Shown here in pieces: positions 14,417 to 42,625 of a DNA stretch of 64,000 nucleotides; position 1 is the stretch's first letter; every line of letters starts with the position of its first letter. A program made the translations under genes and the position numbers. This DNA is from Myxococcales bacterium (lineage in GTDB: Bacteria > Myxococcota_A > Polyangia > JAHFDS01): positions 27,876 through 91,875 of the forward strand of contig JAHFDS010000004.1 in the NCBI GenBank assembly GCA_023248855.1, written 5' to 3'. The notes beneath the pieces were generated by a model, which searched no databases, was not told the origin of the DNA, and saw nothing but the letters and a program-made list of their open reading frames with translations.

Positions 14417-14472
14417 CGTGCTCTCCCCCAATCGGCAATGACTCAGGATGGGCCCCGCATGCCTCGATCCAC

Positions 14473-18681: not shown

Positions 18682-18920
18682 CAGTGAAAGCAGACCACGC
18701 AGCACTTCTCTGCCCCGCTGGTCCTGTGCGAGCGCCGTGCCAGCCGCGGTACGGGCTCCATCGGTGTCACCCGAGCGACCGACTTCTGCGTGTGCGCCGA
18801 GCATGCGGCAGATCTCGCCGATCCGCGCGCCCTCTTCGGCAACTTCCGCCGCTCGGCCGGTCGCCACGCGCCGGCCCGCCCACAATCCAGACGGCCCGCC
18901 TCTTGCCTCTCGACTCCTTG

Positions 18921-21206
18921 GTGAGCGCAGAGACGCTGGTTTCTATCCTGAAGGGGCATGCCGATCGCACACCCGAGGCTCCCTTCATCGAGCACCTGGC
19001 TTCCGGATCGACGATCTCTTATCGAGCCGCCTGGCGGACCGCCCAGCAACTGTCAATGCTCCTCGGCCGACTCGGCGTCGGCAGGAGGGCGCGCGTCGTG
19101 TTCGCGGTCCGGAATCACTGGCTCCTCCTGCCAATGCTGGTCGCCTGCAGTGGGCGCCGCGCCACCCTGGTGCCGATGGATCCGGATCTCCATCGCGACG
19201 AGCGTCGGTTCATCCTGTCGAGCTGCGCCCCGGCGCTGGTGATCACCGCGGACGCAGATTCTTTCCCCGTGGCGCCGGGCCATGCGCCCACCACCCTGAC
19301 GATCTCGCGTCTGCTGGAATCCCTCGAGGCCGAGGGCGCGGCCTCCGAAGACCTCCTCGACCCGGACCCCGGAGCTCCCGACGACGTCGTGCTCTTCATC
19401 TACACGTCCGGCACCACCGGCAGCAGCAAAGCCGCCATGCTGACCAATGCCAACCTCCTCGCCAATGCCGCGGCGCTGGTCGAGCGGTATGCGGTCGGAG
19501 ATCGGGATCGCGTCCTCTGCATCCTGCCCACGCACCACATGAACGCGATCATGATCACGGGCATCGTTCCGCTCGCGGCAGGGGCCAGCATCTGTCTCTC
19601 CGAAGCTCTGAGCTTCCGAAACGCCAAGCTCTTCTGGCGCAATGTGGCGCAGCAACGGATCACGATCTGCAGCCTCGTGCCCTCGATCATGGCGCTCCTA
19701 CTCAAGCTGTTTCCGAACGGCCCGGACGTGCCCGTCTCGGCGCTTCGCTTCGCCTTCTGCGGCGCGGCCCCGTTGCCCGCCGAGACCTGGCGACAGTTCG
19801 AGGACGTCTTCGCTCGTCCGGTCCATCAGGGGTACGGGCTGACCGAATCCACGTGCTGGGCCGTGAGCAGCCCGGTGCGAGGACCGCGCAGCCTGCACAG
19901 CGTCGGAGCGCCGCTGTCGTGCTGTGAGGTGCGGATCGGCCCGCCGGTCCGAGAGGCGGAGATCTTCCTGCTCGAACGGGACGCCCCGGCCCCGGTGGCT
20001 CCGAGCGTCCCGGGCGAGATCCTCCTGCGGGGTCCCATCGTGGGCCCCGGCTACTACAAGAACCCGCGTCTGACCCGGGAGACCACGACGGAGGACGGCT
20101 TCTTCCGGACGGGCGATCTGGGCTTCTTCGACGCCGATGGCTACTTGCACGTCATCGGGCGGATCAAGGAGATCATCATCCGGAACGGCGCGAACGTGGT
20201 CGCGGGCGACCTGGATCGCGTGCTCTTGCAACACGATGCGATCCAGGCCTGCAAGACCATCGGTATCCCGGACCCGCTCGTCGGCGAGCGGATTCACTGC
20301 GTGTGCGTGTCCGACCAGCACGGCGCGATCAAGCCGGGCACTGTGCGCGCCTGGGTTCAGGACCGGATCTCGCCCCGCCTGTGGCCCGATGCGCTCACCC
20401 TCATGGGTTATCTCCCCACCGGCGCCACCGGCAAGGTCTCGATCAACCTGCTGCGCAAGATCGTCACGGGTGAGCTGTCCGAAGAGATCCTTTCCTGCCT
20501 CTGCAGCCCGAAGTACAGGCGTGCCCCGCCTTCAGATCCTGACGCCACAAGAAAGGTCGTGCAGCGCTCCCTGATCCAGGGCCAGCCGATCCATTTCCTG
20601 GCCTACTGGGGCTGCGGTCCGCGCCATTCGATGGCGCCGGTCGACTTGCTGGCCCTCGAGCGATTGCGGGACCTCATCGATGGCGCGCGCCGGATCCCCG
20701 AGGCTCCTCCCCGGCTGACTCTCATCTTCACGGACGTCCACGCGAGGAACAACCGCGTCCCCGAGGAGCGGCTTCGGCGCTATTTCGAAGAGATTCGCCT
20801 GGCCGCCGAGGGCCTCGGCATGAACGCCCTGTATCTGAGCGAGATCTGGGACGAAGCAGGGCTGACGAGCTCGAGGATCCAGGCCGCAGTGTACGATCCG
20901 GACTCCGAATACGCCTGGCGAGGGCTCTCGCTCCGGGATCGCCTGGTCGATCAGGCGGGCAAGCACCTGGAGGAGAGCACGGGCGCGGAGGAGGCTGCCC
21001 GGTTCTACTACCTGGCCTGTCGGCACGAGGGTCCCCTGATTGCCAGTCGATATCCGGAGAGCCTCTTCATCACGTACAACCATCCGGATTTCGATGGCCT
21101 GTTGCCGGCGCTGCCCAAGCTCTATCTGTACTCCTACAAGATGGGAAGCTCGGCCAAACCCTGGTTTCTGGGAGCAGAAGCGGCCGACCGGCGTGCCACT
21201 GGCTGA
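18921..21206 (+). CDS. Acyl/aminoacyl-adenylate-forming enzyme (ANL, DltA/FadD-like) fused to an unassigned ~220-aa C-terminal domain
   Basis: Start taken at GTG 18921 (SAETLVSILKGHADRTPEAPFIEH), in frame with track ORF 18684... ANL cores: LFIYTSGTTGSSKAAML, YGLTEST, GEILLRGPIVGPGYY, FRTGDLGFFDADGYLHVIGRIKEIIIRNG, TGKVS. Confidence 0.8.
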   Translation: MSAETLVSILKGHADRTPEAPFIEHLASGSTISYRAAWRTAQQLSMLLGRLGVGRRARVVFAVRNHWLLLPMLVACSGRRATLVPMDPDLHRDERRFILSSCAPALVITADADSFPVAPGHAPTTLTISRLLESLEAEGAASEDLLDPDPGAPDDVVLFIYTSGTTGSSKAAMLTNANLLANAAALVERYAVGDRDRVLCILPTHHMNAIMITGIVPLAAGASICLSEALSFRNAKLFWRNVAQQRITICSLVPSIMALLLKLFPNGPDVPVSALRFAFCGAAPLPAETWRQFEDVFARPVHQGYGLTESTCWAVSSPVRGPRSLHSVGAPLSCCEVRIGPPVREAEIFLLERDAPAPVAPSVPGEILLRGPIVGPGYYKNPRLTRETTTEDGFFRTGDLGFFDADGYLHVIGRIKEIIIRNGANVVAGDLDRVLLQHDAIQACKTIGIPDPLVGERIHCVCVSDQHGAIKPGTVRAWVQDRISPRLWPDALTLMGYLPTGATGKVSINLLRKIVTGELSEEILSCLCSPKYRRAPPSDPDATRKVVQRSLIQGQPIHFLAYWGCGPRHSMAPVDLLALERLRDLIDGARRIPEAPPRLTLIFTDVHARNNRVPEERLRRYFEEIRLAAEGLGMNALYLSEIWDEAGLTSSRIQAAVYDPDSEYAWRGLSLRDRLVDQAGKHLEESTGAEEAARFYYLACRHEGPLIASRYPESLFITYNHPDFDGLLPALPKLYLYSYKMGSSAKPWFLGAEAADRRATG
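20548..21206 (+). other. Unassigned C-terminal domain of the ANL fusion protein
   Basis: Sequence: QPIHFLAYWGCGPRHSMAPVDLLALERLRDLI...RLTLIFTDVHARNNRVPEERLRRYFEEIRL...FYYLACRHEG...LFITYNHPDFDG...KLYLYSYKMGSSAKPWF. Composition is coding-like. I recognise no family with confidence. Confidence 0.5.
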
Positions 21207-21251
21207 CGCCCCGCGAAGCGCCGCATCGACGATGAGCCCCGGGAGGTCGAT

Positions 21252-21515
21252 ATGCAGCGGGTGACGATCCTGACGACGGTGAACGAGGTCCTTCGGCGCG
21301 AGCTCCCGAGCCTTGGCGACACGGAGCTCGTGCAGGACACGCCTTTGCTGTCCACGGGCCTGCTCGATTCGTTCGCCATGGTGACCCTGCTGGCGGCGCT
21401 CGAGCAGGCCTTCGCGATCAGCCTGGACGTGGAGCGCATCTCGCTCGGGCAGCTCGAGACACCGAGCGCGATTGCCGATCTCTGTCGAGACGCGCTCTCG
21501 TTCCAGCCAGGATGA
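21252..21515 (+). CDS. Stand-alone carrier protein (DltC/ACP-like)
   Basis: 87 aa with gggagg upstream. Phosphopantetheine-site pattern TGLLDSFAMVTLLAALE. Confidence 0.8.
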   Translation: MQRVTILTTVNEVLRRELPSLGDTELVQDTPLLSTGLLDSFAMVTLLAALEQAFAISLDVERISLGQLETPSAIADLCRDALSFQPG

Positions 21516-24436
21516 TGGAAACTCATGTCGAGCCATGCTGGCCCGATCCGTTGGTGCAGCGCCTGGCTCTTCACGCGCGTGCGCGCCCGGACCGGCCCGC
21601 TTTGATCTTCCCGTCGCCGACCGGCGCGACGGTGGTGCTCGGCTGGCGTGAGCTCTTCGAGACCGTCCGTAAGCTGGGCGCCCATCTCGCTTGCGCCGGA
21701 GTCGCTCCCGGCGAGGCCGTCGCGGTCCTGTCCTCGTCGCAGCGCGAGCAGATCCTCGGGTTTCTGGCGGTGCTGGCCTGTGGCGGTGTGCCCACCATCC
21801 TCTCGCATCCCTCGATCAAGCAGAGCGCCGCCCAATTCCTGGACACGTTCCGTCACGTCCTCTCGAGCGGTGGCATTGGCTGGCTATTGCACGGAAGCGA
21901 CGGGGTCGGCAATATTCGAGGCGAATCGCAGAGCGGCGGCGCGCCGGCAGCCCGCTCGATCGAGTTTCCGGATGTGGCCTCGCTCACCGAGCGAGCCGAG
22001 CCAAGACCGATGGTCCCCGATCGACCGATGTTCCTCCAGTTCTCGTCGGGAACGACGGGGCTCCGGAAGGGGATCGCGATCAGTGGGGCAGCCTACCAGG
22101 CCCACGTGAGCGCCTATTCGACGCTGCTCGAGCTCCGGCCCGACCGTGACGTGGTGGCGAGCTGGCTTCCCCTTTACCATGACATGGGCCTCATAGCCGC
22201 CTTCCTGGTCCAGATCGATTGCGGTGTAACGTCGGTTCACATCTCACCCTTCGACTGGCTCAGCCGGCCGGTCTGGCTGTTTCGGCTCGCCACGCACCAT
22301 CGCGCGACCTTCCTCTGGATGCCGAACTTCGCCTTTCAGCTCTGCGCGGCGCGGATCTCGAGCGACGACCTGGCCCACGACGTCGATCTGCGGGACGTCA
22401 GAGGCTTCATCAGCGCAGGCGAGCCGGTGCGCGATCTGGCCCTGACGAGCTTCTGCGCCCGGATGGCGCCTGTGGGCGTGCGGCCCGATCAACTGCAAGT
22501 CTCCTATGGCATGGCCGAGAACGTCTTCGCGATCACGCAGACGCCGCTCGGCAGGGAGCCGGTACTCGACGTGGTGGAGCGGGAGCCGCTCCAGCGCGCG
22601 CGGCTCGCCATGATAGCGGCCCCCGGCAAGACGACCATCACCTACGTCTCGTGCGGCCAGGCAATCGCGGGCACGTCCGTCCGGATCTCGGGCACTACCG
22701 TCGAGCGGGTCGTGGGCGAGATCGAGATCAAGGGCGACAGTCTCTTCGACGGCTACTGGAGACGAGACAGGTCGGTCGACCAGGATGGCTGGTTTGCGAC
22801 GGGCGACCTCGGATACCTGGCCGACGGCGAGCTCTACGTCACCGGCCGCGCCAAGGACCTCATCATTCACAATGGGGTCAACCTGCCTCCCAATGAGATC
22901 GAGGAGGTCATCGAGCAGGTCGCCGGCGTCAAGGTCGGACGTGTCGTCGTCTTCGGCGTCTTCAACGAGGGAGCTGGCACCGAGGACGTCGTCGCGATGC
23001 TGGAGGTCACCGACGACGCCCCCTGTGCAAGAGACGTCAAGCGTGCGGTGCGCGAACAGGTGCAGCTGCAACTCGGGCTGTCTCTTTCGGAGGTGGCCGT
23101 GTGGGGGCCAGGGGCACTAGCCAAGAGCACGTCCGGCAAGCTCTCGCGGGCTCGCAACCGCGAGCTCCTTCTCGAGCATCGCGCAAGCCTCGCGACCCAG
23201 CGGGCCGAAGAGGCCCCCGCCGGCCCCACGAGTCCCACCGAGGCCCGGCTCGTGCAGCTATGGGAGGCTGCTCTCGCCGGCAGGTATCCGGGACAGCGGA
23301 TCGGCATCCGAGATCTGCTCTTCTCGGAGCTCGGCGCAGACTCGCTTGCTGCGATGGAGGTGCTGGCGGGCATCCAGACGCATCTCGGCAGGGACCTCAG
23401 CCCGGCCCTGTTGTTCCAGCACGAGACCATCGAGGCCCAGGCGTCCCTGATCCAGGGCCGCGCGAAGCCGAGCCCATTGCTGGTCACGATGCGGCGGGGC
23501 CAGGCCGGCCGCAGCCTGTTTCTGGTGCACGACGCGAGTGGCGATACGCTGTCCTACCTCCCGCTCGCTCGACACATCCCGAACGGCTGGTCGATTCACG
23601 CGCTCCAGAACCCGCATGCGTTCGGGCGCGACGGCATGTACGACAGTGTGCAGTCGATGGCCGCGGACTACCTGCGCGCTCTACAAACCGTGCAGCCCAC
23701 CGGACCCTACTACCTCGGCGGTCATTCTTGCGGTGGCACGATCGCGTACGAGCTGGCGTCGCAGCTGGAGCGCGCGGGCCAGACCGTCGGTGCGGTCATC
23801 CTCATCGATTCGTTTCCGCCGCGATCGCCGAACCTCTTCGACGGTAGGGTCGTGCTCGAGCGCTGCCGGTCGAGGATCCAGGAACAGCTGGCCGAGCCGC
23901 CGCACCGGCGCACGCACACGAAGATAAGAGGCCTGCTCGACCGACGCCCTGAAATCCAGCTGCTCGATCTGGTGTATCTGTTCGAGGATCTGGGCACCCT
24001 CTGTGACGCCATCGAGCTGTGCCTGCCCGAGGCGGCCGGAGAGCCCTCCGTGCGGTTCCCGTCTGTGGAGGATCGCTGGAGGTCCCTTTACGGGCGCCTG
24101 ACTCCACTCCTCGTGGAGTGGGCCTGGCGACCGCGGCTCTACCGAGACAAGACGCGAGCCGCGCTCCGCAGGGCTAGCGTCGTCGCGCGCTCGCTGGTCA
24201 TCTTGACCGACTACCGGCCGGCCCGGCCCATGGAGGCGCCCGTCGTGCTGATCAAGGCCGCCGACTCGGATCAGAGCCTGGGCTGGGATGAGCACACTGT
24301 CTGGCCCATGACCGTCCACGCGGTCGAGGTGGTCGACCTCCCTGCCGCTGGGACTTCGCACACGCACATCATCACGGGCCGGAACGCGCTGGCGGTAGGC
24401 CGCACGATCGCGGCGGCGCTGGAGGCCGCGCCGTGA
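21512..24436 (+). CDS. Tri-domain FAAL-type adenylation - carrier (T) - thioesterase protein
   Basis: ATGA overlap with the carrier gene. FAAL-type cores: FSSGTTGLRKGIAIS, WLPLYHDMGLI, MPNFAFQLC, TGDLGYLADGELYVTGRAKDLIIHNGVNLPPNEIE. Carrier motif LGADSLAAME (Ser codon 23342-44). TE motifs LFLVHDASGD and GGHSCGG (Ser codon 23726-28). Confidence 0.88.
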   Translation: MMETHVEPCWPDPLVQRLALHARARPDRPALIFPSPTGATVVLGWRELFETVRKLGAHLACAGVAPGEAVAVLSSSQREQILGFLAVLACGGVPTILSHPSIKQSAAQFLDTFRHVLSSGGIGWLLHGSDGVGNIRGESQSGGAPAARSIEFPDVASLTERAEPRPMVPDRPMFLQFSSGTTGLRKGIAISGAAYQAHVSAYSTLLELRPDRDVVASWLPLYHDMGLIAAFLVQIDCGVTSVHISPFDWLSRPVWLFRLATHHRATFLWMPNFAFQLCAARISSDDLAHDVDLRDVRGFISAGEPVRDLALTSFCARMAPVGVRPDQLQVSYGMAENVFAITQTPLGREPVLDVVEREPLQRARLAMIAAPGKTTITYVSCGQAIAGTSVRISGTTVERVVGEIEIKGDSLFDGYWRRDRSVDQDGWFATGDLGYLADGELYVTGRAKDLIIHNGVNLPPNEIEEVIEQVAGVKVGRVVVFGVFNEGAGTEDVVAMLEVTDDAPCARDVKRAVREQVQLQLGLSLSEVAVWGPGALAKSTSGKLSRARNRELLLEHRASLATQRAEEAPAGPTSPTEARLVQLWEAALAGRYPGQRIGIRDLLFSELGADSLAAMEVLAGIQTHLGRDLSPALLFQHETIEAQASLIQGRAKPSPLLVTMRRGQAGRSLFLVHDASGDTLSYLPLARHIPNGWSIHALQNPHAFGRDGMYDSVQSMAADYLRALQTVQPTGPYYLGGHSCGGTIAYELASQLERAGQTVGAVILIDSFPPRSPNLFDGRVVLERCRSRIQEQLAEPPHRRTHTKIRGLLDRRPEIQLLDLVYLFEDLGTLCDAIELCLPEAAGEPSVRFPSVEDRWRSLYGRLTPLLVEWAWRPRLYRDKTRAALRRASVVARSLVILTDYRPARPMEAPVVLIKAADSDQSLGWDEHTVWPMTVHAVEVVDLPAAGTSHTHIITGRNALAVGRTIAAALEAAP

Positions 24437-25184
24437 CCACACCGATCCGCTCCAGCACCCAGGGCCGGTGCGTGTCGAGGAAGAAGTGGCCCGCGTCTAC
24501 TTCGTTGGTGGCCACGGCGGCGCTCGTCAGAGCGGCCCACGCCGCTGTATCGGAAGCAGAGACCGAGGTGTCTCGCCGTCCCGTCAGGACCGTGACGGGT
24601 ACGGAAAGCAGCGGGCCAGGCTCGTAGCGGTAGGCGGCGAGCGCCGCGAGGTCCGATCGAAGCGACGGCAGCGCGAGCGCCATCATCGCGGCATCCTGCA
24701 GCACCGCCAGAGGCGTGCCGTAGCAACGATGAAGCGCCTCGACGAGGGCTCGGTCTGGCAGGTGGTGGATGTGCGCGCCCCGCTGCGGCACCTGCGGCGC
24801 CGGTCGGGCGCCGACGACGAGGGCCTGCAACGGCGCCTGCTCGGCCTGCAGACGCCGCGCCAGCTCGAAGGCGATGAGCCCGCCCATGCTGTGGCCGTAG
24901 ATCACGAGCGGCAGCGTCGGCAGTGTGGACAGCGCGGCCGCCACACGCTCGACGATGCTACCGATGCTCGCCAACGCGGGCTCCCTCCACCGGTCCTGAC
25001 GGCCCGGAAGCTGTACGGCGCGGAGCTCGACGTGTGCAGGTAGCTTCGCCGGCCAGCTGTGGAAGACGGTGGCGCCGCCACCCGCATAGGGGACGCACAG
25101 GAGCCGGAGGCCCGGTGCGGCGGGCGGCGCACGGGTGCGCAGCCACAATGCGGCCTCGCCGTGCTCCATGCGGGCCGTCTGCAT
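24372..25184 (-). CDS. Type II (editing) thioesterase
   Basis: LLCVPYAGGGATVFHSWP..., GHSMGGLIAFE, ...DAGHFFL. Its last 65 nt overlap the 3' end of the convergent gene 21512..24436. Confidence 0.85.
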   Translation of the reverse strand: MQTARMEHGEAALWLRTRAPPAAPGLRLLCVPYAGGGATVFHSWPAKLPAHVELRAVQLPGRQDRWREPALASIGSIVERVAAALSTLPTLPLVIYGHSMGGLIAFELARRLQAEQAPLQALVVGARPAPQVPQRGAHIHHLPDRALVEALHRCYGTPLAVLQDAAMMALALPSLRSDLAALAAYRYEPGPLLSVPVTVLTGRRDTSVSASDTAAWAALTSAAVATNEVDAGHFFLDTHRPWVLERIGVVTARPPAPPRSCGLPPARSGP

Positions 25185-30255: not shown

Positions 30256-30256
30256 G

Positions 30257-34300: not shown

Positions 34301-37300
34301 TCGACGTAGCCCACCTCCGCCGGAGCGAGGCCAGCGTTCGCGAGGGCGCGGACGATCACGTCCTGTTGCGAGGGCCCGTTCGGCGCCGTGAAGCCGTTGC
34401 TGCGGCCGTCCTGGTTGACCGCCGAGCCGCGGATGACCGCGACGACCGGATCGCCGTCGCGGAGGGCGTCGGACAGGCGCTTTAGCACCAGCACGCCGCA
34501 GCCCTCCGCGCGCACGTAGCCATCGGCGCCAGCCGAGAAGCTACGGCAACGTCCGGTCGGCGACAGCGCCCGGAGCCTGCTGAAGTAGACCGTGCACTCG
34601 GGGGCGAGGGTGAGGTTGACGCCGCCGGAGAGCGCGAGGTCGCACTCCCTGAGGCGTAATCCCTGGCAGGCCAGGTGAATCGCCACGAGCGCCGACGAGC
34701 AGGCCGTATCGATCGGGAGGTTCGGCCCCTTGAGCCCGAGCCAGTAAGAGAGGCGCCCTACCGTGGCGCTGTGGGCCGTGCCGAGATACGAGTAGCCGTC
34801 GATGCGACCGGGATCGCCCATGGCCCAGTACTGGTAGTCGTTGGCACTGATGCCGACATAGACCCCCGTGTTGCTACCCATGAGCGACCCCGGGACGATC
34901 CCTGAGCGCTCGAGGGCCTCCCAGGTGCACTCGAGCAGCAATCGCTGCTGCGGGTCGATGGCGACCGCTTCGCGCGGAGCGATGCCGAAGAAAGCCGCGT
35001 CGAAGCGGTCGGGCAGCTCGACGAAGCCGCCCCAGCGGCTGCTCATCTTGCCGGCAGCACTCGGGTCGGGGTCGTACCAGTCGTCGATTGCCCAGCGATC
35101 GCTCGGCACCTCCGTGATCGCGTCCACGCCATCCTCGAGTAGCCGCCACAGCGCGTCCGGACCCTGGACGCCCCCCGGAAAACGGCAGCCGATGCCGACG
35201 ATGGCCACGGGCTCGTCCGTGGCAGCGCGCCGCGACCGCCCGGGTGCCGACACCGTCGAATCCTGACCCTCGACGCGTGTCAGCAGGTGATCGCAGAGCG
35301 CACCCAGGCTGGGGTAGTCGAAGGCGATCGTCGCCGGCAGTGAGGTGCCCAGGCGCTCGATGAGGGCGCTGCGCAGCTCGACCGCCATCAGGGAATCCAG
35401 GCCGAGCTCCTGGAACGGAGCCTCGAGCGGCACGTCGGCCGGCGATGGCAGCGCCAGGATCCGCGCCAGCTCCGTGCGCACGATCGCCTCGAGGTTGCCA
35501 GCCGTGGCCGGCGGCCTCCGGCCGAGCTGGGTGGAGGGATGGGCCGCACGGCCCTCGATCGTGGACCAGTCCACGGGCGCACCGGCGACGTGCAGCCGCG
35601 CCATCGCTTCGAGCGCGCTCGCATGCTCGTCGCGCCCCCGCGTGAGCGACGCCACCCGTACGACCGGCGCGTCCGGTCGCGCCAGGGCGTCCATGCCCAG
35701 CAGCACGGATTGGGGGCCGATCTCGACGCAGATCTCGGCGCCCACCTGATCGAGCGCGATGAGCCCCTCTGCGAAGCGAACCGAGGATCGGACCTGGCGG
35801 GCCCAGTAGGCTGGATCCATCATGAGCGCCGCGCCGGCGCGAGCGCCCGTGACGTTCGAGATGAGCGCGAGCCGCGGAGGTCGCAGCGCGAGCGTGGTGG
35901 CCAGCTCCGTCAGCCCCTCGAGCATCGGATCCACGAGCGGCGAGTGAGCGGCCAGGGAGATCGCGAGCCGCTTCGTGCGGACGCCGCGGGCCGCAAACCA
36001 GGCCGCGACGGCCCTCGCATCGGCCGCAGGGCCCGAGATCACGACCGCTTCGGGGCCGTTGACCGCCGCGACGGCGACCCGCTCTCGCAACGGGGCGAGG
36101 GCGTCCAAGACAACCGCCTCGGAGGCCGCGATCGCGATCATCTCGCCCCCCGGTGGCAAGGCCTCCATGGCGCGCGCCCGTGCAACCACGAGCCGGCAAC
36201 AGTCGGCCAGGCCGACGACGTCCGCCACGCAGGCGGCGACGAGCTCGCCGAGGCTGTGCCCGAGGACGACGTCGGGACAAATGCCGCGCGTACGCCACAG
36301 CGCGACCAGCGCCCATTCGAACGCGAAGAGCGCGGGCTGGGTCGTGCCCGTGCGATCGAGCAGGGCTGCGCGGGGTGTGCCTGCGGCAGCCCACATGATC
36401 TCGCGGAGCGGGTGCTCCAGATGGCGATCGAGCTCGGCGACTGCCTCGTCGAATGCGGCGCGGAACGCGGGCTCGGTCTCGTGGAGGCGGCGCCCCATGC
36501 CCGCGACCTGGGCGCCCTGGCCGGCAAAGAGAAACGCGACCCGGGGGTGGGTACGCGCCTCTCCGACGAAGACACCTTCGGCGAAGAGGCCCGCAGCATG
36601 AGCATCCAGGGAGCGAGCGGCGGCAGCGGCATCGGCCGTGATCACGCACAGGCGATGCGGCTCGTCCGGCGCGGAGGTGCTGCAGGAGGCGACCACGTCG
36701 CAGAGCCCATCCTGGGGACGGTCACGGAGCCGGGCGCCAAGGCGCGCCGCTGCCTCCTGCAAGGCCTCGGTGCTGGGACCCGAGATACGCAGCACGTGCA
36801 ATGGACGCGGGTCGTCGGCAGCGGCGACCGTGGTCGATGTTCGGGGGCGGGGTTCGATCCAGTACCGTTCGCGCTGCCAGGCGGTGGTGGGCAGCGCGAC
36901 CCGCCGGGCGCCAGGTGCCACGACGCCGCGCCAGTCGACCTGACCACCCATCGCGTACCAGCTTCCCAGCGCTTGCAGCAACGCCTCCGGCTCCGGGCGC
37001 CCGGTCCCGAGCGAGCCGAGCAGCACCCCCGGCGCCTGCAGGCCCGCGCGCACGAGCTCGAGCAGCGTCGGCCGAGGACCGATCTCGATGAACGTCTTTG
37101 CGCCGGCCGCTTGCAACGCGCGAGCACTCGCCGAGAACCGGACGTCGTCGCGCGCGAGGCGCATCCAGTAGGCTGGCGTGGCGATCTCGGTGCCGGCGAG
37201 GGCGCCGGTGAAGCTCGACACGATCCCGAGGGACGGGGCCTGATAGCGCACCGATGCGGCCACGCGCGCGAGGCTCTCCGTCGCGCAAGACAGCGTAGCC

Positions 37301-40300
37301 CCGCCTGCGGGCAGCGCCTCGGTCAGCCGGCTCCACGCGGTGACGAGTCGCGCCGCGTCCTCGAGTGGGAACACGCCTGCGACGCACGCTGCGGCGATCT
37401 CCCCGACCGACTGGCCGGCCACGAGATCCGGTGCCACGCCGAAGGAGCGCCACTGTGCGGCCAGCGCCCACTCGAGCGCGAACAGCGCCGGCTGTGACCA
37501 GCCCGGCTGATCCAGAAGCCCGGCGTCGGCAGGGCTCGGCCACATCACGTCGCGCAGTGGACGCTCGAGGTCGGGATCGAGAGCGGCAAGGGCGGCATCG
37601 AGCGCATCCCTGAAGACGGGCCACGCCGCGTGGAGCTGCCGTCCCATGTCAGCGGTGTGCGCGCCTTGCCCGGTGAACAGGAATGCCAGCTTGCCGCGCC
37701 GGCTCGCCGCGTGGGCTTCGCGGCAGGCGACCCCGACCGGGGTCTCACCGCGCGCGACGGAATGGAGCACCGATCGGAGCGCGATCCGAGACTCGACCGC
37801 CAGCGCGAGGCGGTGACCGAGGTGGGGCCGGAGCGCAGTGCTGGCGGCGAGATCCGCGAGGGTCATGTCCGGATGAGCGTCGAGGTGCTCCCGAAATCGA
37901 CCCACCGAGTCGAGGAGCGCCGCCCGCGACTTGGCCGACAGCACCACGAGCTCCGCTGGGCGGGCCGCGGGCACGGCTCGATCAGCGGCCGCAGCCCCCT
38001 CCTCCAGCACCACGTGCGCGTTCGTACCGCCAAAGCCGAACGCACTCACACCGGCGCGCCGCGGCGTTGCGCCTCGCGGCCATTCGATCGACTCGCTCGC
38101 CACGCGGATCGGAAGGGTCTCCCATCGGATGTGCGGGTTCGGCCTCGAGAGGTGCAGGTTCCGCGGAATTCGGCCCCGCCCGAGCGCCAGCACGGTCTTG
38201 ATGAGGCCGGCGATCCCCGCTGCGGACTCGGTATGCCCGATGTTCGTCTTCACCGAGCCGAGGACGAGAGGCCAGGCCGGATCGCGCCCTTCGCAGAGCA
38301 CCGCCGCCGCGGCCTGCACCTCGATCGGATCGCCGAGCGGCGTTCCCGCACCGTGGCATTCGAGGTAGCCGACGCTGTTCGGGGCCACGGCTGCGCGCCG
38401 CACGGCCTCCCGGATCACGGCCTCTTGAGCGGGCCGGCTCGGCGCGGCGAGCCCGTTGCTGCGGCCGTCCTGGTTCACCGCCGATCCCCTGACCAGCGCG
38501 AGCACGGTGTGCCCGAGACGCCGCGCGTCGGACAGCCGCTCGAGCACGATGATCCCGGCGCCCTCGGCGCGGACGTAGCCATCGGCGTCCGCAGAGAACG
38601 TCCGACAGCGACCCGTGGGAGACAGGGCCCGAAGCCGGCTGAAGTAGATCGAGGTCTCTGGCTCGAGCACGGTGTTGGCTCCACCAGCGATCGCGAGGTT
38701 GCAATCGCCGGAGCAGAGCGCCTGGCAGGCGAGATGGACCGCGACCAGCGAGGACGAGCACGCGGTGTCGATGGGGACGCTCGGCCCCTGCAGCCCGAGC
38801 CAGTACGACAGCCGTCCGGCCATGGTGCTGTGCATCGTCCCGAGCAGGGTGTAGGCGTCGATCGCGCCACCGAGCGCGCGCGCCTGGTACTCGGTCTGGC
38901 TCAGTCCCAGGTAGACGCCGGTCTTCGATCCCACGAGCGCCGCCGGATCGATGCCCGCTCGCTCGAATGCCTCCCAGGTGGTCTCGAGCAGCAGGCGCGC
39001 CTGCGGGTCGATGCTCGGAGCCTCACGCGCGGAGATGCCGAAGAAGCCAGGCTCGAAGCGATCGAGGCCGGACAAGAAGCCGCCCCACCGAGACGTCATC
39101 TTGCCCAACGCCGACGGATCAGGATCGTGGTAGGCGTCCACGTCCCAGCGCTCGCACGGTACTTCGCTGATGGCGTCACGGCCCTCGTCGAGCAGCGTCC
39201 AGAACGCCTCCGGATCGCTCGCCCCGCCGGGGAAGCGACAGCCGATGCCGACGATGGCGATCGGTTCTTGGGCGGAACCGGAATCGACCGACTGGGCGCT
39301 GGGCGCCGGAGCGCCGGGGCCACTGCCCAGCGCCACGACGTGCGCGGCCAGCGACATCACCGTGGGGCAGCTCCAGACCGCGGTGGCGTCGATCCGATGG
39401 CCGGTCCAGGTCTCGATGGCGGCGGCCAGCTCGAGGGCGCGCAGGGAATCGACCCCGAGGTCGTGGAAGGCTGCATCATCGTCTGGTGCAGCGCCCCCCG
39501 TCGCCTCGTGTCCGCGCGAGACGAAGGCCCGGATGCGATCCGCCACCGCCGTCACCGTGACCGCGGCAAGGCCGGTCGGCGCCGGCGAAAGCTCGCCGTC
39601 GCGCTCGGCGTCCGCCGAGCGCCAGGTGTGCAGGAGCTCGAGCCGGCCTTCCCGCCTGGCCTGCCGGCACGCCAGTCGTTGGATCTTTCCACTGCTGGTC
39701 TTGGGGATCGTGCGGGGCTCGAGCAGCAGGAGCTCTTCGAGGCGCACTCCGCAGGTCTCCAGGACGGCACGCGCCGCCACCCGCGCGAGCTCGCCGAACC
39801 CCTGCTCCCCGGAATCATGGAGGCGGCCGGTCTCTACCTCGGCCGCCACGATCAGCTGCTCCTCGGTACCCGAGTCGACCGAGAAAGCCGCACAGCACCC
39901 CGCGCGCAGCGCCGGGTGACTCTCCTCGATGGCCCGCTCGACATCCTGCGGATAGAGGTTGCGCCCCCGGAGGATGAGGAGGTCCTTGCGCCGGCCGGTC
40001 AGGAACAGCTCGCCGTCGTGCAGAAAGCCCAGATCGCCCGTACGGAGGAACGGACCCTCGTCACTGGACAGCAGCCGGGCCGCAAACGTCTCCTGGCTCT
40101 GCTCAGGTCGACGAAAGTAGCCTTTGGCCACACTCGGCCCGCAGAGCCAGATCTCGCCGAGCTGCTGCTCCCCGAGCGCCTGGCACGCCTCCGGATCGAC
40201 GATGCGGAGATCCATGTCGTGCCAGGGGCAACCTTGCGACGCGAAGCGTTGCGTTCGCCCGGTGCCCGGCGCGGCGAGCACGACCTGCCCTCGCTCGAGC

Positions 40301-41370
40301 GCGTCAGCGCACAGGGTCAGCGTGCGTGGACCGCGACCGATCCCTCGGGTCGTGACGAGCACGGTGGCCTCCGCGAGACCCCAGGCGGGCTGCAGCGCCT
40401 CGGCCGAGAACCCGAGCGGCGCGAGCTTCTGCGCGAATCGCTCCATCGTGTCGGGGCGCGTGGGCTCGGCCGCGTTGACCGCGACCCGCCAGGAGGACAG
40501 GTCGAGTCCCGCCAGGGCGGCCAGCGGGACCCTCGCGACGGTGAGATCGTAGGCGAAGTTCGGCGCCATGCTCACGGTACCGCGGAAGCGCGAGATGGCG
40601 CGCAGCCACTCGGCTGGATTTCGGGCGAAGTCCGAGGGACGCATCAGCGTGCAGGTCGCGCCGAGCCAGGCCGTCGCCAGCAGGTTCATCACGAGCCCCA
40701 TGTCGTGAAACAGCGGCGCCCAGCACACGAAGGAGGTCTCGGCGCCGAGCCGCCAGGCCGCCTCCATCATGGTGAGGTTGTGTGTCAGGTTGGCGTGGGT
40801 GACGACGATGCCCTTCGGATCTCCGGTCGAGCCCGACGTGTACTGGAGAAACGCGGTGTCCTGCCGGTCCGACGGCTTCAGGTCGGCGAGCTCTTCGTCC
40901 GCGACCGCGTTCAGATCGAGCCAGGTTGCCCCGTCGAGCCGGGCAACGGGCTCGACGAGCGTGCGTACTTCTGCCGCGGCGAGGATGAATTGCGCCTGGG
41001 CGTCCCGAACGATGGCCGCCATGCGCGGCAATGAGCGAGCCAGTCGGCTCGGATCCGGCGGTGTAACCGGTACCGCGACCGCGCCGGCGTAGAGGCATCC
41101 GAAGAAGGCCGAAACGAAGTCGAGCCCGGTCTGAAACAGCAGGAGCACCCTCTGGCCAGCCGCACCGGATCGCACGAGCCGAGCGGCCACGGCACGCGCG
41201 GACCGGTCGAGCTCCTGCCAGGTCATCTCATCGACCTCCCCATGCGCCGTCCCGGATACGAGGAACCGAAACGCGAGGCGCGATCGCGCGCTGGAATCCC
41301 CGTAAGCGCGCACGCGCTCGAGGAGCGTGGCCCCGGCTGCTGCTTGCACGGTCGAAGAGATCTCGCTCAT
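31312..41370 (-). CDS. Type I modular polyketide synthase, 3352 aa: FAAL-ACP-KS-AT(dead)-AT-ACP-KS-AT(relic)-KR-ACP, no TE
   Basis: Continuous ORF with all the domain motifs listed in the sub-features. Every long ORF on the opposite strand (e.g. 37630..41034, 1134 aa) is Arg/Gly/Pro-rich noise. Confidence 0.95.
   Translation of the reverse strand: [3352 protein letters not shown]
31380..31590 (-). other. PKS domain: ACP3 (terminal; no TE follows)
   Basis: [16 protein letters not shown]. Ser codon at 31477-79. About 55 residues remain before the stop. Confidence 0.85.
31865..32983 (-). other. PKS domain: ketoreductase
   Basis: [55 protein letters not shown] (Ser/Tyr/Asn). Confidence 0.85.
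33055..33642 (-). other. PKS domain: AT relic (~195 aa; GGAGVGE replaces GHSxGE)
   Basis: [11 protein letters not shown] replaces FxGQGxQ. [14 protein letters not shown] (33391-33420) lacks both the His and the Ser. The rest of the fold is missing, but the post-AT linker YPWQRQRYW is kept. Confidence 0.7.
33950..35214 (-). other. PKS domain: KS2 (Cys-His-His intact)
   Basis: [27 protein letters not shown] (Cys codon 34699-701); [26 protein letters not shown]. Confidence 0.9.
35290..35500 (-). other. PKS domain: ACP2
   Basis: [16 protein letters not shown]. Ser codon at 35392-94. Confidence 0.85.
35551..36540 (-). other. PKS domain: AT2, the only intact acyltransferase
   Basis: [17 protein letters not shown] (Ser codon 36253-55) and the His block [11 protein letters not shown]. 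LAAH is neither the HAFH nor the YASH specificity motif. It is preceded by a second KS-AT-linker-like segment ([21 protein letters not shown]...). Confidence 0.85.
36856..37689 (-). other. PKS domain: AT1, predicted inactive (GQSVG plus ~65-75 aa internal deletion removing the catalytic His block)
   Basis: [11 protein letters not shown]...[12 protein letters not shown] (Ser codon 37408-10). Alignment with the neighbouring AT2 shows loss of the segment equivalent to [13 protein letters not shown]...[12 protein letters not shown]. The distance from FLF to VDW is ~253 aa, versus ~328 aa in AT2. Confidence 0.7.
38000..39267 (-). other. PKS domain: KS1 (Cys-His-His intact)
   Basis: [27 protein letters not shown] (Cys codon 38758-60, residue 871); [26 protein letters not shown]. 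Confidence 0.9.
39340..39560 (-). other. PKS domain: ACP1
   Basis: [14 protein letters not shown]. Ser codon at 39445-39447 (residue 642). Confidence 0.85.
39640..41370 (-). other. PKS domain: fatty acyl-AMP ligase (FAAL) loading domain
   Basis: [84 protein letters not shown]. Confidence 0.85.
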
Positions 41371-41550
41371 ATGGCCTCTCCCGTGCCCCGGAAACAGTGC
41401 AAGGGACGCGCCTCGGGTGCTCGATCTGTCGAGTCATGCGGCGGCGCATGGAAGGTGAGCCAAGGCGCAGGAGGGGCTGGCAGCGCGGGCGCCCAGAGCG
41501 GCGAGTCCTGCCGGAACAGGTAATCGATCCGGCGGACGGTCGCCGGTTGA

Positions 41551-42529: not shown

Positions 42530-42625
42530 GATCTACCAGTACCGTCAACCCGCCCATGACGCCATGACCGGGTGCGCCACCGTCGCTGACCGGACGCGCC
42601 AATGCGATCCGGTTCCGACGGATCT

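What the first reader, a model, noticed from the sequence alone, without database searches (positions are those of the whole stretch)
18921..41370. About 22.5-kb convergent two-operon biosynthetic locus combining FAAL/PKS chemistry with an OleA-OleC-OleD-type cassette
The plus operon (18921->24436) encodes an ANL-unknown-domain fusion, a free carrier protein and a FAAL-T-TE protein, with an ATGA overlap between the last two. The minus operon (41370->24372) encodes a PKS, a KAS-III, a KAS-III partner, an OleC-like ligase, an OleD-like reductase, a C-like acyltransferase and a TEII. Every junction in the minus operon is an overlap or a 1-nt gap: ATGA, 1-nt gap, 7 nt, GTGA, ATGCCTGA, TGATG. The locus therefore contains three fatty-acyl-type activating domains plus the OleC-like ligase. 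It has five carrier domains and two thioesterases. It has no amino-acid-type NRPS A domain that I can see. I do not know a characterised cluster with this composition, and certainly not from a myxobacterium-like genome. A multi-chain lipid carrying a beta-lactone, or a derivative of one, is the most economical prediction.
Basis: partly seen in the sequence, partly recalled or inferred. Interest (0 to 1): 0.85.

Follow-up and report, generated by a model that had tools for sequence, protein, structure and literature searches.

The report
Lipstatin-like beta-lactone lipid gene cluster
This is a real, uncharacterised biosynthetic gene cluster from a myxobacterium-like genome that most likely makes a lipstatin-type beta-lactone lipid, built with a dedicated polyketide synthase and a previously undescribed three-protein module for attaching the side chain.

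Summary
All eleven genes, their domains, the five carrier domains, the two thioesterases and every overlap junction are at the stated coordinates.

The minus operon contains a lipstatin/nocardiolactone-type cassette:
- a LstA-like KAS-III with an intact Cys127/His270/Asn304 triad;
- a truncated, triad-less LstB-like partner that keeps the essential Glu (E57);
- an OleC-like beta-lactone synthetase;
- an OleD-like reductase.

No OleB was found. The cassette is preceded by a FAAL-ACP-KS-AT-ACP-KS-KR-ACP synthase that should supply a 3-hydroxyacyl chain.

The 'C-like' protein has no Pfam family, but its predicted structure is a condensation-domain fold. Its homologues follow the OleD gene in about 30 actinomycete genomes, and in Streptomyces inhibens one is fused to A-T.

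The 'unknown domain' on the ANL enzyme is a remote relative of the DIT1/PvcA family (N-formyl-tyrosine and isonitrile synthases).

In a related metagenomic locus, ANL-X, the carrier protein and the C-like gene sit in one operon with the Ole-type genes. This ties the two convergent operons together.

Best reading: a two-chain beta-lactone lipid carrying an N-formyl (or isocyano) acyl ester. It is a new variant of a known kind. The product and the role of the X domain are inferred, not shown.

The parts
16385..17650 (-). MacB-type permease (MacB_PCD + FtsX); probable exporter. The start coordinate is approximate.
   Evidence: Pfam PF12704 and PF02687. MacA/MacB/ABC genes follow the C-like gene in relatives L002 and L007.
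17536..18885 (-). Second FtsX-family permease, divergent from the ANL-X gene.
   Evidence: Pfam PF02687; high third-position GC in this frame.
18921..21206 (+). ANL-X fusion. An adenylate-forming enzyme (to about 20470) is joined to a 240-aa C-terminal domain X (about 20472..21203) that is remotely related to DIT1/PvcA.
   Evidence: - ANL: Pfam AMP-binding 250.9 bits.
- Start at GTG 18921 fits the N-termini of homologues.
- AF2 model pLDDT 92.4.
- The ANL is nearest to MatB and oxalyl-CoA synthetases.
- X: 15 of 28 family members hit PF05141. The top PDB profile hits are isonitrile synthase family proteins. hhalign gives probability 95%.
21252..21515 (+). Free carrier protein (87 aa, LLDSF serine motif).
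   Evidence: Pfam PP-binding, E 1.4e-6. A carrier gene always accompanies ANL-X in relatives.
21512..24436 (+). FAAL-T-TE tridomain protein (974 aa).
   Evidence: Pfam AMP-binding, PP-binding and Thioesterase. NCBIfam fatty acyl-AMP ligase models score best. Motifs GADSL and GHSCG.
24372..25184 (-). Type II thioesterase (270 aa).
   Evidence: Pfam Thioesterase 149.4 bits over the full length; GHSMG motif.
25184..26392 (-). C-like acyltransferase (402 aa) with a condensation-domain fold. It has no Pfam family.
   Evidence: - No Pfam, NCBIfam or PDB sequence hit.
- AF2 pLDDT 86.9.
- Foldseek top hits are AzeD, the RzmA starter C domain, the SrfA-C C domain and WS/DGAT, E 2e-19 and below.
- Invariant H128-x3-D132-x2-G135 and PVDLR motifs.
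26385..27440 (-). OleD/LstD/NltD-like 2-alkyl-3-oxoalkanoate reductase (351 aa).
   Evidence: NCBIfam NF042422 213.6 bits over the full length, below the equivalog cut-off of 580. Pfam 3Beta_HSD. GASGFLG and Y140-x3-K motifs.
27437..29380 (-). OleC/LstC/NltC-like beta-lactone synthetase (647 aa) with a hydrophobic C-terminal extension of about 95 aa (27437..27740).
   Evidence: NCBIfam NF045786 olefin beta-lactone synthetase 546.6 bits over the full length (cut-off 900), and PRK09274 638 bits, above its cut-off. The extension gives a weak TMEM254 hit.
29374..30255 (-). LstB/NltB-like KAS-III partner (293 aa). It is N-truncated, the catalytic triad is lost and the Glu is retained.
   Evidence: In the alignment to X. 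campestris OleA, E57 aligns with the YLEPS glutamate. The Cys, His and Asn positions are Ala, Ser and Glu.
30257..31315 (-). LstA/NltA/OleA-like KAS-III condensing subunit (352 aa).
   Evidence: Pfam ACP_syn_III and ACP_syn_III_C. Triad C127/H270/N304 from the alignment to FabH. LstA has C128/H271/N305 (PMC12141560).
31312..41370 (-). Type I PKS (3352 aa): FAAL-ACP-KS-AT(partial)-AT-ACP-KS-AT(vestigial)-KR-ACP. It has no TE.
   Evidence: Pfam domains. The N-terminus scores best with FAAL models.
42626..43708 (-). AraC-family regulator; a possible cluster regulator (adjacency only).
   Evidence: Pfam Arabinose_bd and HTH_18.

Best explanation
The locus is a lipstatin-type beta-lactone lipid pathway that has been rebuilt around carrier-bound substrates.

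Proposed steps. The domain assignments are shown by homology; the chemistry is inferred.
1. The PKS FAAL loads a fatty acid. Two KS modules extend it, using the single complete AT. The terminal KR leaves a 3-hydroxyacyl chain on the last ACP. The PKS has no TE.
2. The KAS-III heterodimer carries out a non-decarboxylative head-to-head Claisen condensation. The catalytic LstA-like subunit works with a triad-less LstB-like subunit that donates Glu57. The reaction joins the PKS chain to a second acyl chain, probably the one activated and held by FAAL-T-TE. This releases the PKS product as a 2-alkyl-3-oxo-5-hydroxy acid or thioester.
3. The OleD-like reductase makes the 3-hydroxy acid.
4. The OleC-like enzyme adenylates the carboxylate and closes the beta-lactone.
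5. The side chain is added. Domain X (DIT1/PvcA-like) converts the amino group of an amino acid to a formamide or isonitrile. The fused ANL activates the resulting acid and loads it on the free carrier protein. The C-like acyltransferase then esterifies it to the chain hydroxyl, as N-formyl-leucine is esterified in lipstatin.
6. TEII edits the carriers, and the MacB/FtsX permeases export the product.
For: - Cassette identity. KASa has the triad C127/H270/N304. KASb is truncated and triad-less, and its E57 aligns with the catalytic Glu of OleA. This matches the published LstAB and NltAB features: LstA C128/H271/N305, and the essential LstB E60 and NltB E57 (PMC12141560, 10.1101/856955).
- OleC and OleD. 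The NCBIfam OleC and OleD models match over the full length.
- No OleB. No OleB-like gene was found in the cluster. The only stand-alone alpha/beta hydrolase in the window (4124..5032) hit only a BchO model, and weakly.
- C-like protein. The predicted structure is a condensation-domain fold with an invariant HxxxD motif. Homologues follow KASa-KASb-OleC-OleD directly in about 30 Nocardia, Rhodococcus, Kitasatospora and Streptomyces loci. In S. inhibens the homologue is the N-terminal domain of a C-like-A-T protein.
- The triad. ANL-X, carrier protein and C-like gene recur together in relatives L002, L007, L008, L012 and L168. In L002 they sit inside the Ole-type operon.
- Domain X. It is related to DIT1/PvcA. 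Dit1 makes N-formyl-tyrosine (PMC7345447), and lipstatin carries an N-formyl-leucine ester (10.1101/856955).
- The ANL. It has LPTHHMNA where amino-acid A domains have FDxS, and it resembles malonyl/oxalyl-CoA synthetases. That fits an N-blocked small acid as substrate.
- The PKS. It ends in KR-ACP with no TE, so it needs off-loading by another enzyme.
Against: - No product or enzyme activity is known for any protein of this locus or of its close relatives.
- The OleC and OleD matches fall below NCBIfam's equivalog cut-offs.
- The window's own X domain does not hit PF05141 directly. The link comes through family profiles and covers only about 70-100 residues. X is also fused to AsnB-like, NMT1-like and CT_C_D domains elsewhere, so its chemistry could be different.
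- The triad also occurs without any Ole genes within 10 kb (L007, L008, L168). The C-like acceptor is therefore not always a beta-lactone lipid.
- In Nocardia the C-like gene has no adjacent A domain or carrier.
- Known OleA-type enzymes use acyl-CoA substrates, not carrier-bound ones (PMC7064751).
- PKS module 1 has no KR, so the chain may carry an extra keto group.
- FAAL-T-TE has no conserved syntenic partner.
Confidence: 0.55

Rival explanations
1. This is the reader's reading: a three-chain lipid. ANL-X activates a third fatty acid, and the C-like enzyme esterifies that fatty acyl group to the hydroxyl of the dialkyl beta-lactone. Domain X has a structural or unrelated role.
For: - The best NCBIfam hit of the ANL is a 'long-chain-fatty-acid--CoA ligase' subfamily model (262 bits).
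- Structural neighbours of the C-like protein include a lipid-starter C domain (RzmA) and WS/DGAT.
- MacB-type exporters are adjacent.
Against: - That NCBIfam score is far below its cut-off of 476.
- The nearest solved structures are malonyl- and oxalyl-CoA synthetases.
- The conserved fusion to a DIT1/PvcA-like domain would be left unexplained.
- The locus already has two FAALs for fatty acids.
Confidence: 0.15
2. The beta-lactone is not the end product. Either the OleC-like product is only an intermediate or activated form, or the 2-alkyl-3-hydroxy acid itself is the building block. In both cases the C-like enzyme produces an ester or amide of a mycolate-like branched hydroxy acid, which is exported to the envelope. 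Alternatively, an unlinked OleB converts the lactone to an olefin.
For: - In Nocardia the C-like gene follows nltABCD-like genes and is followed by an MMPL lipid transporter, with no donor-activating enzyme nearby.
- Permease genes flank the window cluster and its relatives.
- The OleC-like protein has a membrane-like C-terminal extension.
- FAAL plus PKS plus TE recalls FadD32/Pks13 (general knowledge).
Against: - No OleB-like gene was found in the cluster.
- oleACD-type clusters that lack oleB are associated with beta-lactone products (PMC7064751, 10.1101/856955).
- The carrier gene overlaps or abuts the C-like gene in relatives, which points to a carrier-bound donor rather than the lactone.
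Confidence: 0.15
3. These are two unrelated neighbours. The plus operon (ANL-X, carrier protein, FAAL-T-TE) makes its own small acylated product, and it merely abuts an independent PKS/Ole-type cluster.
For: - The ANL-X/carrier/C-like triad occurs without Ole genes in L007, L008 and L168.
- The operons are convergent and so are transcribed separately.
- FAAL-T-TE has no syntenic relatives.
Against: - The C-like partner of ANL-X and the carrier protein is encoded in the minus operon, translationally coupled to the OleD and TEII genes.
- In L002 all seven core genes form one operon.
- The C-like family is tied to OleD in about 30 actinomycete loci.
Confidence: 0.08

Closest known systems
Lipstatin cluster lstABCDEF (Streptomyces toxytricini)
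   Same: - An adjacent KAS-III pair, with a catalytic A subunit and a triad-less B subunit that supplies an essential Glu.
- An OleC-type ligase and a 3beta-HSD-type reductase, in the same gene order.
- A 3-hydroxyacyl partner, so the product keeps a hydroxyl for esterification.
- A module that esterifies an N-blocked amino acid.
- A C-like domain encoded directly after the reductase gene, seen here in the S. inhibens homologue.
   Different: - Here the 3-hydroxyacyl chain is made by a dedicated FAAL-PKS rather than taken as an acyl-CoA.
- A second FAAL-T-TE is present.
- The NRPS is split into ANL-X, a free carrier protein and a stand-alone C-like protein.
- The ANL is not an amino-acid-type A domain.
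- No Fmt-type formyltransferase is present. A DIT1/PvcA-like domain is fused to the ANL instead.
- The host is myxobacterium-like, not an actinomycete.
- Identity to actinomycete homologues is only about 34-57%.
Nocardiolactone cluster nltABCD (Nocardia)
   Same: The core is the same four enzymes. NltB is truncated, lacks the triad and needs E57, and the window's KASb Glu is also residue 57 (10.1101/856955). Nocardia loci of this type also carry a C-like homologue directly downstream.
   Different: The nlt clusters have no PKS, FAAL-T-TE, ANL-X or carrier protein, and nocardiolactone has no ester side chain.
OleABCD olefin pathway (Xanthomonas, Shewanella)
   Same: It uses a head-to-head Claisen condensation (OleA), reduction (OleD) and ATP-dependent beta-lactone formation (OleC). 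The NCBIfam OleC and OleD models match over the full length.
   Different: - No OleB decarboxylase was found here.
- OleA is a homodimer, whereas this locus has a heterodimer-type pair.
- Scores are below the equivalog cut-offs.
- The cassette is embedded in a PKS cluster.
FadD32/Pks13 mycolic acid condensation
   Same: FAAL-activated fatty acids are held on carriers and condensed head-to-head to an alpha-alkyl beta-keto product. A TE is present on the carrier-bearing protein. This comparison rests on general knowledge and is by analogy only.
   Different: The condensing enzyme here is a KAS-III heterodimer, not a type I KS, and OleC/OleD-type tailoring follows.
DIT1/PvcA/IsnA family (PF05141)
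   Same: Domain X shares the central (S/T)D-x-H motif region. hhalign gives probability 95% to an isonitrile synthase family structure (9DHM), and 15 of 28 X-family members hit PF05141.
   Different: - The window's own X domain scores below detection against PF05141.
- X is fused to adenylating enzymes (ANL or AsnB-like).
- No PvcB/IsnB-type dioxygenase was seen nearby.
- The X family has its own invariant residues: WG, D-x-H-x3-N, Y, Y, E and PWF.

Membership tests
LstAB/NltAB-type heterodimeric OleA thiolase | Two adjacent KAS-III genes. | tested here: met
   30257..31315 and 29374..30255 are separated by a 1-nt gap. The two proteins are 25% identical over 108 aa, compared with 23% for LstA/LstB (PMC12141560).
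LstAB/NltAB-type heterodimeric OleA thiolase | The A subunit keeps the Cys-His-Asn triad. | tested here: met
   C127, H270 and N304 align with the FabH triad. LstA has C128/H271/N305 (PMC12141560).
LstAB/NltAB-type heterodimeric OleA thiolase | The B subunit is truncated, lacks the triad and keeps the catalytic Glu. | tested here: met
   KASb begins at about OleA residue 60. E57 aligns with the OleA YLEPS Glu. The triad positions are Ala, Ser and Glu. LstB E60 and NltB E57 are essential (10.1101/856955).
LstAB/NltAB-type heterodimeric OleA thiolase | Forms a heterodimer and catalyses a non-decarboxylative Claisen condensation. | not testable with these tools
   This needs co-expression and an enzyme assay.
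Beta-lactone synthetase (OleC/LstC/NltC) | An ANL enzyme matching OleC-specific models over the full length. | tested here: inconclusive
   NF045786 scores 546.6 bits over residues 7-549, below the equivalog cut-off of 900. PRK09274 scores 638 bits, above its cut-off of 478.
Beta-lactone synthetase (OleC/LstC/NltC) | Encoded next to OleA-type and OleD-type genes, with no OleB. | tested here: met
   The gene order is KASa-KASb-OleC-OleD with overlapping junctions. No OleB-like gene was found in the cluster.
Beta-lactone synthetase (OleC/LstC/NltC) | [quoted passage not shown] | not testable with these tools
   This needs an enzyme assay.
OleD/LstD/NltD reductase | An extended SDR with a Rossmann motif and a YxxxK motif that matches the OleD model. 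| tested here: inconclusive
   NF042422 scores 213.6 bits over the full length, below the cut-off of 580. GASGFLG and Y140-x3-K are present.
Condensation-domain (CAT-like) acyltransferase superfamily | A two-lobed C-domain fold. | tested here: met
   AF2 pLDDT is 86.9 and pTM 0.89. Foldseek matches AzeD, the RzmA starter C domain, the SrfA-C C domain and WS/DGAT, with E 2e-19 to 1e-15 and query-normalised TM-scores (TMq) of about 0.55 to 0.72.
Condensation-domain (CAT-like) acyltransferase superfamily | The HHxxxDG catalytic motif. | tested here: met
   F-H128-G-V-M-D132-A-Q-G135 is present. H, D and G are invariant in all 17 family members, but the first His of HHxxxDG is Phe or His.
Condensation-domain (CAT-like) acyltransferase superfamily | Sequence membership in Pfam Condensation (PF00668) or related families. 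| tested here: not met
   There is no Pfam or NCBIfam hit even at E up to 10. It is a distinct family without a Pfam or NCBIfam model.
DIT1/PvcA (PF05141) isonitrile / N-formyl-amino-acid synthases | A significant match to PF05141. | tested here: inconclusive
   - The window's X domain gives no hit at E up to 10.
- 15 of 28 family members hit PF05141, best E 5.9e-8.
- The family profile against PDB gives 9DHM at E 1.4e-3 and PvcA at E 0.22.
- hhalign gives probability 95% over 68 columns.
DIT1/PvcA (PF05141) isonitrile / N-formyl-amino-acid synthases | Converts an alpha-amino group to an isonitrile or formamide. | not testable with these tools
   This needs an enzyme assay.
Fatty acyl-AMP ligase (FAAL) | The best matches are to FAAL-specific models, and a cognate carrier is fused downstream. 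| tested here: met
   - PKS N-terminus: PRK05850 409 bits, PRK09192 390 bits, FadD32 361 bits, followed by an ACP.
- FAAL-T-TE: PRK09192 300 bits, followed by a T domain.
- All scores are below the equivalog or subfamily cut-offs.
- The ANL of ANL-X does not fit this family.

The most novel reading that the evidence does not exclude
ANL-X, the carrier protein and the C-like protein form a previously undescribed and widespread three-protein acylation module. Domain X is a new branch of the DIT1/PvcA superfamily, with 673 representative clusters, often fused to carboxylate-adenylating enzymes. It generates an isocyano or N-formyl acid that is channelled to the fused ANL. In this locus the module would decorate a PKS-derived beta-lactone lipid. 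That could give a compound with two reactive groups (beta-lactone plus isonitrile) from an uncultured myxobacterium. The same unannotated C-like enzyme family would also be the missing esterifying catalyst of lipstatin-type and Nocardia nlt-type clusters.
Probability: 0.2. Interest if true: 0.85.

Novelty: new variant of a known kind. Interest (0 to 1): 0.62.

Why it matters
- **Drug-relevant chemistry.** Beta-lactone lipids such as lipstatin are covalent lipase and hydrolase inhibitors of medical value. All characterised OleA/OleC/OleD-type natural-product clusters that I found are actinomycete clusters fed by acyl-CoAs.
- **A new way to feed OleA-type condensation.** This locus would show that the same head-to-head condensation and lactonisation chemistry can be coupled to a modular PKS and to FAAL-loaded carriers. 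That opens a route to engineered chain diversity.
- **Two unannotated protein families.** One is a C-like acyltransferase that is invisible to Pfam yet conserved after the OleD gene in many Nocardia, Rhodococcus, Kitasatospora and Streptomyces genomes. The other is a DIT1/PvcA-like domain fused to adenylating enzymes. Their characterisation would improve genome-mining rules.

Tried and rejected
- **Sequence searches for the two unknown domains.** Pfam, NCBIfam and PDB sequence searches of the C-like protein and of the window's X domain found nothing. Only structure prediction (C-like) and family profiles (X) gave answers.
- **Foldseek with full-length ANL-X.** It returned only ANL structures, so it could not test the fold of X.
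- **Metagenome scan with FAAL-T-TE.** It returned only generic FAALs at 31-40% identity, with no synteny.
- **Word-indexed homologue search with X alone.** It found only 2 proteins, whereas the exhaustive search found 673.
- **Promoter and terminator scan.** It was no better than shuffled sequence.
- **Upstream ORF.** ORF 41367..43376(-), which would have extended the minus operon, was rejected as a wrong-frame artefact. Its product is Arg/Ala/Gly/Pro-rich, and third-position GC favours other frames.
- **Rival chemistries.** Olefin biosynthesis was rejected for lack of OleB. An alpha-pyrone (MxnB/CorB-type) reading was rejected because OleC and OleD are present and CorB is only a marginal hit.
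- **Literature.** The lipstatin cluster paper (PMC4249243) is not held. The domain order of LstE itself could therefore not be verified.
- **Contexts of stand-alone X proteins.** They lie on contigs too short to be informative.


Full report

Yes.

On the plus strand:
- An ANL enzyme with a 240-residue C-terminal extension that has no Pfam match.
- An 87-aa carrier protein (21252..21515).
- A FAAL-T-TE protein (21512..24436).

The long ORF holding the ANL gene starts at 18684. Alignment to five homologues begins at ORF residues 83-101, which correspond to their residues 3-25.

On the minus strand:
- A 3352-aa PKS (31312..41370).
- A 352-aa KAS-III.
- A 293-aa KAS-III-like partner.
- A 647-aa OleC-like ligase.
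- A 351-aa OleD-like reductase.
- A 402-aa protein with no family hit.
- A 270-aa type II thioesterase.

I read the junctions directly from the sequence. They are ATGA, a 1-nt gap, a 7-nt overlap, GTGA, ATGCCTGA and TGATG, plus ATGA between the carrier gene and the FAAL-T-TE gene, exactly as reported. The five carrier serine motifs and the two GxSxG thioesterase motifs are present. Third-position GC of 0.83-0.88 marks these frames as coding.

**2. Corrections to the anatomy.**

- **The PKS.** Its order is FAAL-ACP-KS-AT-AT-ACP-KS-AT-KR-ACP, but only the second AT is complete (profile 2-317 of 319, GHSLG). The first is partial: 122 bits in two stretches, the better covering profile positions 2-129, with motif GQSVG. 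The third is vestigial: 18.7 bits, with the active-site Ser replaced by Gly in GAGVG. There is no TE. The N-terminal domain scores best with FAAL models.
- **Upstream of the PKS.** The 669-aa ORF that overlaps the PKS start (41367..43376) is a wrong-frame artefact. The genes there are a 117-aa remnant of a class II aldolase, a ThiJ/DJ-1-like gene and an AraC-type regulator.
- **Left of the ANL gene.** Two divergent MacB/FtsX-type permease genes lie at 16385..18885. Relatives of the cluster carry MacA/MacB/ABC genes directly after the C-like gene. Export genes are thus a recurrent accessory, and the locus probably extends to about 16.4 kb.

**3. The Ole-type cassette is of the lipstatin/nocardiolactone kind.**

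KASa aligns with FabH across its whole length and keeps the triad as C127, H270 and N304.

KASb aligns with Xanthomonas OleA only from about OleA residue 60 onward:
- Its E57 falls on the Glu of the OleA YLEPS motif.
- The positions of the OleA Cys, His and Asn are Ala, Ser and Glu.

This is the published signature of LstAB and NltAB:
- An A subunit with the triad (LstA C128/H271/N305).
- A truncated B subunit without the triad, whose Glu (LstB E60, NltB E57) is essential.
- The two subunits are soluble and active only together (PMC12141560; 10.1101/856955).

The OleC-like protein matches the NCBIfam olefin beta-lactone synthetase model over residues 7-549 (546.6 bits). The OleD-like protein matches the 2-alkyl-3-oxoalkanoate reductase model end to end (213.6 bits). 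Both scores are below the equivalog cut-offs, as expected for natural-product paralogues rather than olefin enzymes.

I found no OleB. The only stand-alone alpha/beta hydrolase in the window (4124..5032) lies 14 kb away and hits only a BchO model weakly. Clusters of oleACD type without oleB are taken to make beta-lactones (PMC7064751).

**4. The 'C-like' protein.**

It has no Pfam, NCBIfam or PDB sequence match. The word-indexed search of 5.8 billion protein clusters found only 17 relatives.

An AlphaFold2 model built on these relatives is confident (pLDDT 86.9, pTM 0.89). Foldseek places it in the condensation-domain superfamily:
- AzeD: E 2e-19, query-normalised TM-score 0.72.
- The RzmA lipid-starter C domain.
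- The SrfA-C C domain.
- WS/DGAT.
- A BAHD enzyme.

H128, D132 and G135 (FHGVMDAQG) and a PVDLR motif are invariant.

A pattern scan of one genome per GTDB species found 160 relatives. A local tblastn of all window proteins against the 78 loci kept gave two results:
- In about 30 loci from Nocardia, Rhodococcus, Kitasatospora, Streptomyces, Longimycelium and Wenjunlia, the C-like homologue (33-38% identity) lies directly downstream of KASa-KASb-OleC-OleD homologues (about 40-57% identity).
- Many of these loci have an adenylation enzyme immediately after it.

In Streptomyces inhibens the C-like region is the N-terminal domain of a 1011-aa C-like-A-T protein. Pfam sees only the A and T parts. 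In Nocardia abscessus the C-like protein is stand-alone and is followed by an MMPL transporter.

It is the dissociated counterpart of the domain that precedes the A-T of lipstatin-type NRPS genes. I could not verify the domain order of LstE itself, because the original paper is not held.

**5. The 'unknown domain' X.**

The ANL-X architecture is conserved. More than 55 full-length homologues of 710-790 aa come from Polyangiaceae, Bdellovibrionota, Planctomycetota and other MAGs. A model built on them is very confident (pLDDT 92.4).

An exhaustive profile search found 673 representative proteins with the domain. Among the 137 best hits that cover the domain, the architectures are:
- stand-alone: 64;
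- ANL-fused: 50;
- other fusions: the remainder, which include AsnB-like plus NMT1/THI5-like, and CT_C_D.

The family-wide invariant residues are WG, D-x-H-x3-N, two Tyr, a Glu and a C-terminal PWF.

The window's own domain gives no Pfam hit. The family, however, links to DIT1/PvcA through three results:
- 15 of 28 diverse members hit PF05141, best E 5.9e-8.
- The best PDB hits of the family profile are two isonitrile synthase family structures (9DHM and 9DH4, E about 1e-3), followed by PvcA at E 0.22.
- hhalign of the profile against the matched 9DHM segment gives probability 95% and E 3.5e-8 over 68 columns. The X motif LTDxHAxxN aligns with CSDGHVFGD.

I regard this remote homology as likely, though not proven for the whole domain.

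Members of that family turn the amino group of tyrosine or tryptophan into an isonitrile (PvcA, IsnA) or a formamide (Dit1 makes N-formyl-tyrosine; PMC7345447).

The ANL half is closest to malonyl- and oxalyl-CoA synthetases in both sequence and predicted structure. It carries LPTHHMNA where amino-acid A domains have the Asp-containing FDxS motif. It is neither a FAAL nor a standard amino-acid A domain.

**6. Are the two operons one system?**

The best evidence is comparative.
- **L002.** In this metagenomic locus (50-59% identity), one operon reads KASa-KASb-OleC-OleD-ANL-X-carrier-C-like, followed by MacA/MacB/ABC genes. It has no PKS, FAAL-T-TE or TEII.
- **The triad elsewhere.** ANL-X, carrier protein and C-like gene recur in L007, L008/L009, L012 and L168, sometimes without Ole genes.
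- **More distant ANL-X proteins.** L169 has a carrier-domain protein next to ANL-X, and L170 has an unannotated 84-aa ORF just upstream.

So ANL-X and the carrier protein (plus operon) work with the C-like protein (minus operon). The conserved core is seven genes. The PKS, FAAL-T-TE and TEII are additions specific to this genome. For FAAL-T-TE the link is only its ATGA coupling to the carrier gene, and a metagenome scan found no syntenic relative.

**7. Most likely mechanism.**

The domain assignments are shown by homology. The chemistry is inferred.

1. The PKS loads a fatty acid through its FAAL and extends it twice. The terminal KR leaves a 3-hydroxyacyl-ACP. This is the same kind of partner that LstAB uses as a CoA ester, (3S)-3-hydroxytetradecadienoyl-CoA (PMC12141560). 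The KR lacks an LDD motif and has the Trp typical of A-type reductases. By the usual rule this gives the L-configured alcohol. That is a weak inference.
2. With no TE on the PKS, the KAS-III heterodimer is the natural off-loading enzyme. It would condense this chain head-to-head with a second acyl chain, plausibly the one held by FAAL-T-TE. The TE of that protein could release the 2-alkyl-3-oxo (or 3-hydroxy) product, by analogy with Pks13.
3. The OleD-like reductase reduces C3.
4. The OleC-like enzyme closes the beta-lactone.
5. X formylates or isocyanates an amino acid. The fused ANL activates the N-blocked acid and loads it on the carrier protein. The C-like enzyme esterifies it to the remaining hydroxyl, which parallels the N-formyl-leucine ester of lipstatin (10.1101/856955).
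6. TEII edits the carriers, and the MacB/FtsX proteins export the product.

I put about 0.55 on the overall picture, a beta-lactone lipid with a small esterified side chain. I put much less on the exact role of X.

**8. Rival explanations.**

- A third fatty chain instead of a small acid (0.15).
- A ring-opened or mycolate-like ester, or an olefin, as the end product (0.15).
- Two unrelated neighbouring clusters (0.08).

The Nocardia arrangement (C-like plus MMPL with no donor enzyme) and the Ole-less triads show that the acceptor and donor of the C-like family are not fixed. This is the main weakness of the favoured model.

**9. Novelty.**

Full-text searches found no paper describing a myxobacterial beta-lactone cluster, or a FAAL/PKS cluster joined to OleC-type genes.

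No cultured organism among the GTDB species representatives carries a close homologue of the C-like protein. The best matches are 39-49% identical and come from MAGs.

The window's contig is known only from a Logan assembly of SRR14366783. The nearest named homologues are from Polyangiaceae MAGs. The flanking genes include an FHA-sigma54 activator, a Ser/Thr kinase with an AAA_16 domain and a MopE-like protein. These fit Myxococcota.

The core chemistry is known, so this is a new variant of a known kind rather than a new class. The variant features are:
- a PKS and FAAL-loaded carriers feeding an OleA-type condensation;
- a split side-chain module with a DIT1/PvcA-like fusion;
- an unannotated C-like family.

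These features make it a good target for expression and for enzyme characterisation.

Noticed in passing
window 14937..16124 (+): A beta-lactamase-family esterase lies beside the cluster. It is most similar to lipase LipE (NF038269, 342 bits, cut-off 750; Pfam Beta-lactamase 215 bits). It could be a self-protection hydrolase or a resistant target copy for a lipase-inhibitor-like beta-lactone. This is speculation.
   Followed up: partly
window 9272..14575 (-): A tightly packed four-gene set encodes a GMC oxidoreductase, an aldehyde-dehydrogenase-like protein, a PaaK-like ANL and a class I/II aminotransferase. It is absent next to the related locus L002, so its link to the cluster is unknown.
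   Followed up: partly
window 41551..41904 (-): A 117-aa ORF matches only positions 1-61 of the 183-position class II aldolase profile. It appears to be a gene remnant between the PKS start and the ThiJ-like gene, and it overlaps the end of that gene.
   Followed up: no
window 27437..27740 (-): The OleC-like ligase has a hydrophobic C-terminal extension of about 95 aa (weak TMEM254 hit, E 0.012). The homologues in L002 (667 aa) and S. inhibens L048 (662 aa) are similarly long. The N. abscessus homologue is not (557 aa). It may be a membrane anchor.
   Followed up: partly
window 24372..24436: The convergent FAAL-T-TE and TEII genes overlap by 65 nt at their 3' ends. No terminator-like structure lies between the operons.
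   Followed up: partly
L086 9998..13290 and about 30 other loci (e.g. L037, L048, L069, L075): Nocardia, Rhodococcus and Kitasatospora loci of nltABCD/lstABCD type carry a C-like gene with no Pfam hit directly after the OleD homologue. In N. abscessus it is followed by an MMPL transporter. This gene is not mentioned in the parts of the nocardiolactone paper that I read.
   Followed up: partly
P0189, P0225, P0162, P0165; L171: The X (DIT1/PvcA-like) domain also occurs fused to AsnB-like plus NMT1/THI5-like domains (about 1030 aa) and to the CT_C_D carboxyltransferase domain. It is repeatedly partnered with carboxylate-activating enzymes.
   Followed up: partly
L008 2464..8672: In this relative the ANL-X gene is co-oriented with a 681-aa protein of no known family and a carbamoyltransferase. 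The carrier and C-like genes lie divergently from them, and no Ole genes are nearby.
   Followed up: no
L065 (Dactylosporangium), L076 (Nonomuraea): C-like homologues followed by an adenylation enzyme sit next to type I PKS genes whose KS is 51% identical to the window's KS1. No OleC or OleD is nearby. This suggests that the C-like family is also used in other PKS contexts.
   Followed up: no
window 31312..41370 (-), PKS residues about 1227-1480 and 2578-2740: Two degenerate AT domains follow the two KS domains. One is partial with motif GQSVG, and one is vestigial with the Ser replaced by Gly. A full AT is inserted after the first. This unusual KS-AT(partial)-AT arrangement suggests that one AT serves both modules.
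   Followed up: partly
window 1496..3493 (+), 44521..48342 (-), 51528..53168 (-): An FHA-sigma54 activator, a Ser/Thr kinase with an AAA_16 domain, and a VWA protein with MopE-like repeats flank the locus.
   Followed up: no
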